In this document: piece after piece, positions 8,064 to 35,253 of the stretch
How positions within the stretch are numbered: the first letter of the stretch is position 1
Layout: the number at the start of each line of letters is the position of its first letter
Source: Eledone cirrhosa
Taxonomy: Eukaryota
Direction: 5' to 3'
Assembly: GCA_964016885.1 (NCBI GenBank)
Contig: CAXHJY010001402.1
Span: 1 to 39,423, forward strand
Length of the DNA: 39,423 nt
Translations under genes and position numbers: made by a program
The notes under the pieces: model-generated
What the model was told of the DNA's origin: nothing
The model's input: only the letters and a program-made list of their open reading frames with translations
Database searches by the model: none

Positions 8064-8174
8064 CGTTGATGATTGCTGCAGTATGACTGAGATAGGAAAT
8101 AGACCGTGCATATGTATGTATATACATTTTAAAGAAATACATACATATATATATATACATATATATATACATAC

Positions 8175-8225
<51 letters not shown>

Positions 8226-8264
8226 CATATATATACATACATATATATATATACATATATATAC

Positions 8265-9494
8265 GACCTTGAGAAAGCCTTTGACAGAGTTCCACGTGCA
8301 GTAATCTGGTGGGCTCTTAGAAAACTAGGAGTAGATGAATGGCTTGTGAAAGCGGTACAAGCCATGTATAGGGGAGCAGTCAGCAAAGTTAGGATTGGCA
8401 ATGAGTATAGCGAGGAATTTAGCGTACAGGTTGGGGTCCACCAGGGCTCTGTTCTTAGCCCTCTCCTGTTCATCATAGTCCTGCAGGCAATAACGGAGGA
8501 GTTTAAGACCGGATGCCCATGGGAACTCCTGTATGCTGATGACCTCGCACTCATAGCTGAATCTATGGTAGAACTAGAGAATAAATTCCAAACCTGGAAG
8601 CAGGGACTAGAGAGAAAGGGCCTCAAAGTCAACATGACAAAGACTAAGGTCCTTATAAGTAGACGAGAAAACAGAACCCAGATCCCCTCAGGGAAATGGC
8701 CTTGCTCAGTATGTAGGAAAGGTGTAGGTAGGAACTCCATTCTTTGCCCCAAATGCAAACAATGGGTACACAAGAGATGTAGCGGGATCTCAGGAAGCTT
8801 AATTAAGAATGTAGGATTCACATGCAGCAGCTGTGCTGAAACAGCAAGCAAACAGCCACAGGAAACAAGTACCACCAATCTCTGGGAGGGCCCTGTAGAA
8901 ACAGTAGACAGCTTCTGCTACCTAGGTGACCGAATTAGCAACGGAGGTGGGTGCTCAGAAAGTACAATAACTAGGGTAAGAACGGGATGGAAGAAGTTTA
9001 GGGAACTACTACCACTGCTAGCTGCAAAAGGCTTCTCCCTCAGAATGAAAGGCAGACTGTATGATGCGTGTATCCGAACAGCGATGTTGCATGGTAGTGA
9101 GACCTGGGCGCTGAAGGTGGAAGACTTACGTAGATTAGAGAGAAACGAAGCCTGCATGCTCCGATGGATGTGTAACAGTAATATACGTGAACGACAAAGC
9201 ATAAATGAATTGAGAGAGAGACTGAGCATAAGAGGAATCAAATGCTGCGTGCAGGAGAGGCGGTTACGCTGGTATGGACATGTGATGCGTATGAAGGATG
9301 ACAGCTGCATAAAAAGGTGCAGAGCACTAGAAGTTGATGGAAACCGCGGAGTGGGGAGACCCAAGATGACTTGGGATGAGGTGATAAAAGCCGACCTTAC
9401 CCAACTACACCTCTCAAAGTCAATGACACACGACCGTGACTTCTGGCGTCACGCAGTAATACAGGGTACCCGACCTCCCATGGGTACATGCTGA
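8265..9494 (+). pseudogene. Truncated RTE reverse transcriptase ORF, uninterrupted, with an internal Cys/His PHD-like insert
   Basis: 8265 is in frame with track ORF 8346-9494. No stops. The N-terminal endonuclease and early RT are missing. Confidence 0.85.
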
Positions 9495-29670: not shown

Positions 29671-29877
29671 TCATCATCACATTCTTCTCAACTGGAACAT
29701 GTTGACACTAACATATATGTATGTGTTGCCTGTGTGGTGTGTCCATGCCTCTGTGTGGTGTGTATGTACCTGTCTGAGGATGTGTGTACCTGTGTGGTGT
29801 TTGTGTGTGTTCTTATGTGTCAGTATGCCTCTGTGTATGTATATGTGCGCGCGCACCTGTGTGTGTGGCTGTGTACC

Positions 29878-29913
<36 letters not shown>

Positions 29914-30011
29914 CATTGCCGCAGTGAAATACCTGTTCAACAACAAACAACGAAGTTTTCTAATTAAGGAAATAATGAAAATAATGATAAAATAATGAGA
30001 GTGAATCTTAC

Positions 30012-30735
30012 CTTGCAAACAGGTCTCCCGGTAAACACAATCACAGCCGTATCCATTATCCGTTTGAATACAAATACAACCTTTGTCACAGACCGAAGCA
30101 TTTTTACATGCTGGTTTAACAGCGAAGTCATCATCGATCGCACTGACAAGTTTGGCACGAACAGGAATACAAGAACAATTTCCATAGATCACATTCCGAA
30201 TTAAACCCTTAAAACGTGTGGAAGATTTTGCTTCTGGGTTGGAGACTTTACTGTTGTCAAGCCCTAACAACATGCCTCCGAAGTACACGTAATTATGGAT
30301 GTTTTCAGAACCGAATATGAAATCCGTTCCCTCGAATCGCATCTGTTTCGTGATTTTATCAACCGTGAAAGTAGTTATTTCGTTGTTTCGTTTCACAGTC
30401 ACACTGTGCCACTGATCGTTATCAAAATCTCCCGCGATTTTCAATGTTTTGGCCACATCAGGACGATTTGAAATCTTAATCGTCAATGATATAATTCCAT
30501 CGTTTAGATCGATCTGAAAGAAGTCCATTACACCATTGTCATCTGTGTACACGAGAAGAGAGGACTTTTGTTCGGTTTTGAAACTAAAAGAGAGACTGGA
30601 ATTTAAACAGACATTCCATAATGAAAATTGGGCATAAGATCTTTGTGTGCCCGCTAAATAAACACTAAAAACTGACGGACAAATGCATAGAAATGCCAGT
30701 CCGACCAGTGTCAATCGAGTCATTTGATTAGCCAT
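30012..30735 (-). CDS. First coding exon of an alpha-neurexin (Nrx-1-like): signal peptide, laminin-G/LNS1 domain, EGF-like domain
   Basis: ATG at 30735. Hydrophobic leader MANQMTRLTLVGLAFLCICPSVFS. LamG motifs FSFKTEQKSSLLVYTDDNG..DFFQIDL, DNDQWHSVTVKRN, VYFGG and FKGLIRNVIY resemble invertebrate neurexin LNS1. Cys pattern C..C..C.C....GYGCDC follows. GTAAG donor at 30011-30007 gives a 724-nt, phase 1 exon; the ORF read-through past it is microsatellite. Confidence 0.85.
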
Positions 30736-31067
30736 TATAGGGCTTTTATTTTTTCTACTGTAGCTCCTTGTTTAAACGGCTACCCACATTAAAGCTGTGA
30801 CCATATACAAACTTAATCAAAACATATTCAGATCTATAAATGTTCGCCCCACGATTGTGGGGTCGATAAAAATATAAAACAAATATATGGTACCAACAAT
30901 ACTAGGATGTGTGGATGTTATTGGTTGTATGTAATAATCCTTTTTATAATAGGTTTTCCTTTTTAAAAAAAATGTTATGATAGACTGGAAATATCCAAGT
31001 TTGTTTCAGTAGTAAAACACTCCTGTGTTCCTGCAGATTATCCGTTTATAAATATGAGTATTGATAT
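30736..31067 (-). other. Putative 5' UTR part of the neurexin exon, starting at a splice acceptor
   Basis: Minus strand TTTCTTTATTTCAG|ATATC polypyrimidine tract plus AG at 31081-31068, followed by unique sequence up to the ATG. Confidence 0.45.
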
Positions 31068-34495: not shown

Positions 34496-34503
<8 letters not shown>

Positions 34504-34742
34504 AAGGCTTTTACAGGACAAGACCTGTTTCATTCGGGAGAAATCATCAGGAAGCCTGATGATTTCTCCCGAATGAAACAGTTCTAGTCCTGTAGAAGCC
34601 TTTCTATATTAAATATTTATACTCTGCTTTGTATTGAGTACCTTACTTACTGTGGTTACCCCCGATTGAACCCGGGATATATAGTAGGCTGAGATACAAC
34701 CGGTACAACCGGTACATTGATTATACTGGGTCCGTCAACTCC

Positions 34743-34746
<4 letters not shown>
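34496..34746. mobile_element. Family B fold-back element
   Basis: Hairpin 34496-34610 with a 3-nt spacer, plus an extension; TA flanks. Confidence 0.7.
34505..34557 (-). ncRNA. Type I hammerhead ribozyme (family B)
   Basis: AGGCTTC-CTGATGA-t-TTC tccc GAA-t-GAA-ACAGG tcttgt CCTGT-A-aAAGCCT. One stem I mismatch; the opposite arm keeps GAAGCCT. Confidence 0.75.
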
Positions 34747-34800
<54 letters not shown>

Positions 34801-34809
34801 TTTCCTTCG

Positions 34810-34840
<31 letters not shown>

Positions 34841-34841
<1 letters not shown>

Positions 34842-35021
34842 GTTATTCCGGGTTGAATCGGAGGTAACCACAGTAAGTAAGGTACTCAATACATAGCAGA
34901 GTATAAAAGTTTTAATATAGATGAGATTCTACAGGACTAGAACTGTTTCATTCATTAGAAATCATCAGGAATCTCTGATGATTTCTAATGAATGAAACAG
35001 TTCTAGTCCTGTAGAATCTCA

Positions 35022-35027
<6 letters not shown>
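34841..35027. mobile_element. Family B fold-back element, opposite orientation
   Basis: Hairpin 34916-35027 with a 6-nt spacer; extension on the left; TA flanks. Confidence 0.7.
34923..34975 (-). ncRNA. Type I hammerhead ribozyme (family B)
   Basis: GAGATTC-CTGATGA-t-TTC taat GAA-t-GAA-ACAG ttctagtc CTGT-A-GAATCTC. Confidence 0.85.
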
Positions 35028-35049
<22 letters not shown>

Positions 35050-35052
<3 letters not shown>

Positions 35053-35248
35053 CGAAGGAAATGTGGTAAGGAACCAAGTGGACCATAACGCACCAAAGTA
35101 CTCAATACTTAGGGTAGTAGAGTGGGTAATAGGAACGAGTAGGACCCCGACGGCTGAGCTCAAGCCGTTTCGACGGTTAATTCTGGACTAAATGTCCAGA
35201 ATTAGCCGTCGAAACGGCTTGAGCTCAGCCGTCGGGGTCCTACTCGTT

Positions 35249-35253
<5 letters not shown>
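35050..35253. mobile_element. Fold-back element carrying a hammerhead 3' half
   Basis: 60-bp arms within 35129-35253, spacer TAAAT; GAA-ACGGCT tgagctc AGCCGT-C. Related copy at 37679-37735. Confidence 0.6.

What the first reader, a model, noticed from the sequence alone, without database searches (positions are those of the whole stretch)
34496..35027. Family B hammerheads show compensatory stem I changes between neighbouring copies
Seen: the copy at 34923-34975 (-) has stem I GAGATTC/GAATCTC, while the copy at 34505-34557 (-) has AGGCTTC/(G)AAGCCT. The core CTGATGA, GAAAC, GTA and stem II TTC/GAA stay constant while loop II varies (TAAT, TCCC, CTCT at 24360, CTTC near 39120). Inference: selection has acted on RNA structure, which is the strongest internal evidence for functional ribozymes in the source elements.
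Basis: partly seen in the sequence, partly recalled or inferred. Interest (0 to 1): 0.8.

Follow-up and report, generated by a model that had tools for sequence, protein, structure and literature searches.

The report
Penelope hammerhead at the transcript's start
These are dead, folded-back scraps of a very abundant jumping gene whose predicted self-cutting RNA keeps its six-pair stem matched as the family diverged, as already reported for such elements; the ends of the scraps suggest they were likely copied from uncut, capped RNA that begins exactly at that stem.

Summary
Partly confirmed. Both copies are promoterless palindromic scraps of a Hydra-clade Penelope-like retrotransposon (at least 24,564 core matches genome-wide). 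In 65 promoter-bearing copies stem I is 6 bp, not 7. It runs GGCTTC/GAAGCC, AGCTTC/GAAGCT, AGATTC/GAATCT: two pairs swapped on both sides, while the other 35 ribozyme positions outside loop II do not differ between subfamilies. So the covariation is native, but it rests on about two events. Such covariation in Penelope hammerheads is published (PMC4209133). Less ordinary: the first base of stem I lies 30 nt after a TATA box, truncated copies stop there, and an untemplated G often precedes it (42 of 62, against 2 of 63 at a control position). Copies starting at the cleavage site are rare (15 against 222). This suggests reverse transcription of uncut, capped RNA from both nicked strands, and that cleavage would remove the cap. 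Cleavage and start site are untested. The scan noted Penelope hammerheads elsewhere in this genome; look-ups found no note on this sequence or on the cap.

The parts
34924..34974 (-). Copy A, hammerhead with intact 6-bp stem I (AGATTC 34974-34969 / GAATCT 34929-34924), core from 34968, loop II TAAT, predicted cut between 34930 and 34929
   Evidence: same letters as native copy L013
34841..34923 (-). Copy A long arm: 5' UTR sequence running to the far 3' end (about 89 nt past the cut site), then (TA)n
   Evidence: end cluster at +88 to +94 in 51 of 113 copies
34975..35028 (+). Copy A short inverted arm: core to +15, lacks its own stem I 5' strand; supplies the G read as the 7th pair
34496..34556 (-). 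Copy B short arm: GGCTTC 5' strand, loop II TCCC, three substitutions (first stem I pair C-A, two in loop III), ends in (TA)n
34556..34679 (+). Copy B long arm: unmutated core and GAAGCC 3' strand, no 5' strand of stem I
24349..24473 (+). Further 5'-truncated copy, loop II CTCT, lacks the first two core bases and the stem I 5' strand
39067..39230 (.). Further fold-back copy, 5' strand GCTTTC, core CTAATGA, loop II CTTC on the - arm; the + arm has an internal deletion
38662..38811 (.). Inverted duplicate of the 39.1 kb copy, with stem II deleted on the + arm

Best explanation
These palindromes are short, promoterless copies of the 5' end of a Penelope-like retrotransposon, whose predicted type I hammerhead kept a 6-bp stem I through two compensatory swaps, likely under selection in the source elements, and they were likely made by reverse transcription of uncut, capped RNA that starts at the first base of that stem. 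Shown: the motif lies about 140 nt upstream of an RT plus GIY-YIG frame with Hydra-clade motifs. Shown: native stem I covariation, the TATA box 30 nt before stem I, truncations piling up at stem I, an untemplated G there, and discrete 3' ends in (TA)n. Inferred: the endonuclease nicks both strands of a (TA)n target. Each 3' end primes inside the 5' UTR, near +15 to +24 or near +90 from the cut site. Each cDNA runs back through the uncut hammerhead to the cap, which is copied as an extra base. The two cDNA ends are then joined head to head. Inferred: if the ribozyme cuts a transcript from this promoter, probably as a dimer or with protein help, it removes a 45-nt capped leader.
For: Frames with YRDDG, RWR, DKT, CxCx5C, CxxC and CxH motifs follow the hammerhead in L151 and L152. 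Pfam GIY-YIG hit E=2e-4, just under its cut-off. Native stems: 27 AGATTC/GAATCT, 10 AGCTTC/GAAGCT, 9 GGCTTC/GAAGCC of 65. Subfamily majority letters differ at 18-20 of 73-74 promoter columns for two of three comparisons (2 of 71 for the third), at 0 of 35 core, stem II, stem III and loop III positions, and at matched stem I positions only. First T of the TATA box to stem I is 29-31 nt in 53 of 65. Among 112 copies not scored as promoter-bearing, the native upstream match peaks at 6 nt (36) and exceeds 7 nt in 14. With AT-only flanks, G precedes GGCTTC in 42 of 62. In the 38 with an intact GAAGCC strand it does so in 24, none of which has C at +7, so stem I self-copying cannot supply it. Controls at position -4: 2 of 63 and 1 of 100 listed. 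Cut-site starts: 15 against 222 at the stem I start. Of 58 palindromes with unequal arms, the long arm keeps more of the 5' strand in 28, the short arm in 24, tie 6. In vitro, an anole Penelope protein nicks and extends both strands, initiates at two internal sites and mostly uses unprocessed RNA (PMC11167929). An extra 5' G marks capping in full-length L1 insertions (PMC11702581).
Against: No cleavage or RNA-end data. Only about two independent compensatory events; pair 6 states are not resolved on the flank tree. Monomer folding is no better than shuffles (z from -0.7 to +0.4 for three native types); stem II is 3 bp closed by U-U. In AGATTC and AGCTTC subfamilies the G can also come from copying the C at +7: in AGCTTC copies G went with +7 C in 7 of 11 against 1 of 8 (p=0.06). 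C precedes AGATTC in 23 of 100 AT-flanked rows. For GGCTTC a GG-to-GGG slip is not excluded. The cut-site pattern was longer than its comparator, which lowers its count. Arm symmetry could also come from later flipping of the loop. Most copies were found with core-fixed patterns, so core constancy is partly built in. No fetched locus showed a hammerhead downstream of the frame's end.
Confidence: 0.65

Rival explanations
1. The stem I complementarity is made by the inversion junction in each copy.
For: True for the 7th pair. Copies exist in which stem I is extended by self-copying, such as L192 and L223.
Against: Promoter-bearing copies without a junction at stem I carry the same six pairs, 92.8% of cells paired in 51 distinct rows, with both swaps.
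Confidence: 0.03
2. Compensation arose without selection, by template-switch correction of a quasi-palindrome in a master element, and the structure is a non-cutting relic or protein-binding fold.
For: The enzyme switches templates at this very stem. Few events. Ribozyme-dead mutants still insert in vitro (PMC11167929). Minimal Penelope hammerheads cut poorly in vitro (PMC4209133).
Against: Correction should often extend pairing beyond 6 bp, but -7/+7 is Watson-Crick paired in 2 of 65. Unpaired catalytic bases are also fixed between subfamilies while the promoter differs by about a quarter.
Confidence: 0.15
3. The hammerhead is real, but copies stop at stem I because the three-way junction or cDNA self-pairing stalls the enzyme on long read-through RNA; the G is a junction by-product and not a cap.
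For: G follows +7 C in AGCTTC copies. Short microhomologies (AG, CAG, GA) explain many junctions. About a fifth of sampled copies (29 of 141) keep the upstream promoter, so read-through templates exist.
Against: G is commonest in the GGCTTC subfamily, where +7 is A or T (24 of 38). It is nearly absent three bases downstream. The stop coincides with TATA +30.
Confidence: 0.2
4. The short copies come from ribozyme-cut, circularised RNA (a retrozyme-like cycle), as proposed for Penelope elements.
For: Proposed in PMC4209133. Stem III has a self-complementary CTAG loop suited to dimers. A re-ligated circle would also carry an intact hammerhead.
Against: A circle has no end at stem I, and linear cut RNA would start at the cut site, where few copies start (15 against 222).
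Confidence: 0.07

Closest known systems
Hydra-clade Penelope-like elements and their hammerheads (Craig et al. 2021, PMC8557442; section 11, search passages, and part 2 of 59 of the supplement read)
   Same: C-terminal GIY-YIG; RW(R), DKT, CxCx5C, CxxC and CxH motifs; (TA)n targets; frame about 2.1 kb. Listed hammerheads such as Penelope-1_HM have the same layout: core CTGATGAT, short stem II, TGAA, short stem I.
   Different: The listed Hydra-1_Obim hammerhead has a different sequence. The motifs of this family gave 0 hits in the supplement text. Stem II is 3 bp here against mostly 4, and loop III is 8 nt against mostly 1-3. In the parts read, no start site or cap signature is described.
[quoted passage not shown]
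   Same: [quoted passage not shown]
   Different: Helix II is short here (3 bp, U-U closed) where theirs is usually long with G10.1-C11.1. Their cut-and-circularise model is not what the copy ends favour here.
Poseidon element PAc of Anolis carolinensis (Frangieh et al. 2024, PMC11167929; parts 1-2 of 4 read)
   Same: Both strands nicked and extended, internal initiation at two sites giving an optional tail, AT-rich targets, unprocessed RNA as main template.
   Different: Different clade. In PAc the hammerhead overlaps the start codon and initiation is inside the frame; here both lie in the 5' UTR. No cap signature in the parts read.
L1 twin priming and the 5' extra G (PMC11702581; search passages only)
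   Same: Extra G at 5' junctions of full-length copies ascribed to the cap; inversions from priming on both target ends.
   Different: L1 primes on the poly(A) tail and inverts an upstream segment; here both arms copy the same short 5' segment, giving a palindrome.

Membership tests
Type I hammerhead ribozyme | Core C3 U4 G5 A6 N7 G8 A9 ... G12 A13 A14, A15.1-U16.1, H17 | tested here: met
   Met in both arms of copies A and B and nearly invariant in 65 native rows; not met in the 24.3 kb and 39.1 kb copies.
Type I hammerhead ribozyme | Stems I (open), II and III in order, with covariation | tested here: met
   92.8%, 98.7% and 91.7% of cells paired; two stem I pairs change on both sides; stems II and III show no two-sided change.
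Type I hammerhead ribozyme | Purine-pyrimidine pair at 10.1-11.1 | tested here: not met
   U-U in nearly all rows. PMC3088659 (passages) reports natural U10.1-U11.1 hammerheads, and Hydra-clade motifs show the same layout, so it is a known variant.
Type I hammerhead ribozyme | Self-cleavage after H17 | not testable with these tools
   No assay possible.
Type I hammerhead ribozyme | Rfam hammerhead model match | tested here: inconclusive
   No hammerhead family among the 150 best of 183 matches shown at E<=1; 33 weaker ones were not shown.
Hydra-clade Penelope-like element | Single frame, RT followed by C-terminal GIY-YIG | tested here: met
   L151 and L152, each broken by frameshifts or stops; GIY-YIG E=2e-4, 21.9 bits against cut-off 22.6; no Pfam RT hit; 648 relatives at E<=1e-20.
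Hydra-clade Penelope-like element | RWK-like motif, DKT in place of DKG, CxCX5C linker, CxxC and CxH near the end | tested here: met
   RWR, DKT, CNCx5C, CDLC, CMH in L151; in the 120 best of 648 relatives RW[KR] 114, DKT 108, DKG 2.
Hydra-clade Penelope-like element | CCHH motif absent from the endonuclease | tested here: inconclusive
   Two cysteines do lie between the VYK and YIG motifs in L152; histidines were not aligned to a reference.
Hydra-clade Penelope-like element | Insertion into (TA)n | tested here: met
   3' ends run into TA repeats in most of 113 copies.
Hydra-clade Penelope-like element | Groups with named Hydra families on an RT tree | not tested
   No named reference proteins were on hand.
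Penelope-like element structure | Inverted 5'-truncated copy and optional 3' tail | tested here: met
   77 of 141 sampled copies have an inverted partner within 100 nt; ends cluster at +15 (16), +20 to +24 (35) and +88 to +94 (51) of 113.
Penelope-like element structure | Direct pLTR on both sides of the frame | tested here: inconclusive
   Hammerhead upstream of the frame in L151, L152, L116, L159; none found downstream of a frame end, where other insertions or a gap interrupt.
Non-LTR retrozyme | Tandem non-coding units each with a type I hammerhead | tested here: not met
   Window copies are single fold-backs, not tandem units; tandem arrays were not searched for genome-wide.

The most novel reading that the evidence does not exclude
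In this family the hammerhead is the first thing transcribed: stem I begins at the capped base. Cleavage would act as a decapping switch that removes a 45-nt leader, while only uncut, capped RNA serves as template. Thousands of palindromic copies record two-ended internal priming that runs to the cap, giving genomic evidence for how Penelope inverted repeats form and for what the ribozyme is for.
Probability: 0.4. Interest if true: 0.68.

Novelty: new member of a known kind. Interest (0 to 1): 0.38.

Why it matters
Compensatory change in Penelope hammerheads is known, so the finding as written is ordinary. What remains open in the papers read is what these ribozymes do and how the inverted repeats arise (PMC8557442, PMC11167929). 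This family offers three natural stem I variants for swap-and-rescue assays. It also gives a precise prediction: the start site is the first base of stem I, the template is uncut and capped, and cleavage removes the cap. That can be tested with CAGE, cyclic-phosphate sequencing and the existing in vitro system.

Tried and rejected
Rfam scan: only repeat-driven microRNA hits among the rows shown. Inverted-repeat finder: swamped by (TA)n. Pfam on the RT part: no hit. Monomer folding: not better than shuffles. Sequencing runs: no RNA holder listed; three contig runs of one sample add nothing on expression or ends. The 30 loci were meant to find other stem III types and gave single-base variants of the same family. 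The flank tree cannot order the pair 6 change. Scan look-ups by sequence, by words (cap, transcription start) and near this place returned nothing. Paper searches listed nothing that, by title or abstract start, reports a cap-derived G or a hammerhead at the start site of a Penelope element; most listed papers were not opened, and subscription papers and bioRxiv supplements are not covered. Rejected: 7-bp stem I; microRNA precursor (a by-product of the fold-back); function of these particular copies.

Full report
Observation. The window is repeat-rich animal DNA; scan notes call the genome octopus-type, which I did not test. The two cited stretches exist, but each is one arm of a fold-back palindrome. 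In copy A two hammerhead-like arms meet head to head around the loop AGATTC. In copy B they meet around GCTTC. The cited copy B arm reads AAAGCC on the 3' side, so its first pair is broken, and it has two more changes in loop III. The copy near 24350 lacks the start of the core, and the one near 39120 has CTAATGA.

Family. A 32-place core pattern matches 24,564 times in the 3.0-Gb genome, and its reversed control 0 times. [quoted passage not shown] The frame has RWR, DKT, CxCx5C, CxxC and CxH motifs, which PMC8557442 (section 11) gives as marks of the Hydra clade. Among the 120 best of 648 relatives, 108 have DKT and 2 have DKG. Published Hydra-clade hammerheads share the U-flanked short stem II; the listed octopus family has a different one, and this family's motifs gave no hit in that supplement.

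Is the covariation native? I collected copies that keep the upstream promoter, so the inversion junction is not at stem I: 74 rows, 65 after dropping second arms and near-duplicates. Thirty loci came from a promoter-only pattern; most others came from core patterns. Stem I is AGATTC/GAATCT in 27, AGCTTC/GAAGCT in 10 and GGCTTC/GAAGCC in 9; the other 19 are mostly single-change variants, three with an extra T. Position -7 is C in 55 and is Watson-Crick paired with +7 in 2. On 51 distinct rows stem I is 92.8% paired, and two pairs change on both sides (18 and 12 rows). The covariation score 0.127 was reached by 0 of 500 shuffles and exceeds all slid controls. The two measures that count pairs or types did not exceed shuffles (489 and 440 of 500), and stems II and III show no two-sided change.

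How strong is that? Rows are kin. A tree of the flanks puts the pair 4 change near one starred branch and does not resolve pair 6, so about two events are in hand. Subfamily majority letters differ at 18 of 73 and 20 of 74 promoter columns (2 of 71 for the closest pair), at 0 of 35 core, stem II, stem III and loop III positions, at 1-3 of 4 loop II positions, and in stem I only as matched pairs. A rough estimate of mine for two matched complementary changes by chance is about 0.004. Selection on structure in the source lineage is the simplest reading. It is not proof of cleavage: monomers fold no better than shuffles, and minimal Penelope hammerheads cut weakly (PMC4209133) or only with protein (PMC11167929). 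The self-complementary CTAG in loop III fits a dimer.

Why copies end at stem I. In 141 copies taken in genome order (88, 53), 29 keep the promoter and 77 have an inverted partner within 100 nt. Among the 112 not scored as promoter-bearing, the match to native upstream sequence peaks at 6 nt (36 copies) and exceeds 7 nt in 14, five of which are long matches that missed the promoter filter. The first T of the TATA box is 29-31 nt before the first base of stem I in 53 of 65, the usual spacing to a start site (recalled). I then looked at copies joined directly to AT-only flanks. G precedes AGATTC in 43 of 100 listed of 222 (C 23, T 22, A 12; counted by eye, first 30 confirmed). G precedes GGCTTC in 42 of 62 rows among 100 fetched of 131. 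Three bases downstream, G appears in 1 of 100 listed of 175 and 2 of 63, both counted by eye; Fisher p is below 1e-10, though some rows are duplicates or two arms of one insertion. For GGCTTC/GAAGCC copies the G cannot be a copy of +7, which is A or T (24 of 38). An extra 5' G is ascribed to the cap in L1 insertions (PMC11702581).

Results against this reading. In AGCTTC/GAAGCT copies G went with C at +7 (7 of 11 against 1 of 8, p=0.06), so self-copying at stem I may supply some of the Gs, and it could explain all of them in the AGATTC subfamily. A GG-to-GGG slip is not excluded for GGCTTC. Five copies read G-AGCTTC with a GAAGCC strand and are unexplained. No RNA data were available.

Template and priming. 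Only 15 AT-flanked copies begin at the predicted cut site against 222 at the stem I start; the first pattern was longer, so the gap is somewhat overstated. 3' ends cluster at +15, +20 to +24 and +88 to +94 from the cut site and run into (TA)n. Of 58 palindromes with unequal arms, the long arm keeps more of the stem I 5' strand in 28, the short arm in 24, with 6 ties (arm lengths are rough). One cDNA folding back on itself predicts a one-sided result. Two cDNAs primed from both nicks, or later flipping of the loop, fit. This matches the in vitro behaviour of the anole element.

Verdict. The window copies are likely dead: no promoter, and copy A folds as one hairpin of -90.4 kcal/mol. The part worth following is the likely coincidence of start site and stem I, with the cap-like G. 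Papers seen: PMC4209133 and PMC11167929 (parts 1-2 of 4), PMC8557442 (passages, section 11, part of the supplement), PMC3846280 (parts 1-3 of 5; reports TATA and Inr-like motifs and 5' palindromes in rotifer pLTRs), bioRxiv 10.64898/2026.07.22.740005 (part 1 of 5), and passages of PMC3088659, PMC11702581, PMC2377424 and PMC10018344. Supplements of the other papers were not read and may bear on the novelty of the cap claim.

Noticed in passing
window 35062-35250: A second fold-back element of another family: GAAAC, a paired stem with a GAGCTC loop, and GTC, with no CTGANGA just 5' of it; many copies in fetched loci. Scan notes describe a scrambled hammerhead of Naiad elements that may be this family.
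   Followed up: partly
window 34797-34816 and 35046-35065: The end of that second element is repeated in inverted orientation on the far side of copy A, so copy A seems to sit inside its (TA)n junction.
   Followed up: no
window 38662-39230: Larger inverted duplication with two damaged copies of this family around another short palindromic repeat; related flank sequence also lies next to the 24.3 kb and 34.4 kb copies.
   Followed up: partly
L025, L082, L085, L061, L065: A subfamily has an extra T in the stem I 5' strand (GGCTTTC or GGCTTT against GAAGCC); truncated copies again start with G before its first base.
   Followed up: partly
L343, L361, L365, L375, L388: TA-flanked copies read G-AGCTTC although the 3' strand is GAAGCC; either an unsampled intermediate subfamily or misincorporation next to the cap.
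   Followed up: no
window 29677-30771 (-): 364-aa open frame resembling a laminin-G domain exon of a neurexin-like host gene (resemblance recalled, not searched).
   Followed up: no
window 8133-9494 (+): Reverse transcriptase fragment of an abundant LINE, RTE-like by recall; near-identical to one inserted beside the element in L151.
   Followed up: no
L151 1348-1848 and about 2150-2200: GIY-YIG frame and a different CTGAAGA hammerhead of another Penelope family directly upstream, showing nesting of Penelope elements in each other's TA tracts.
   Followed up: no
G000:C1:348858919-348916482: Seven core matches with loop ATAA or ATGC spaced about 9.6 kb apart: a large tandem duplication containing the motif.
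   Followed up: no
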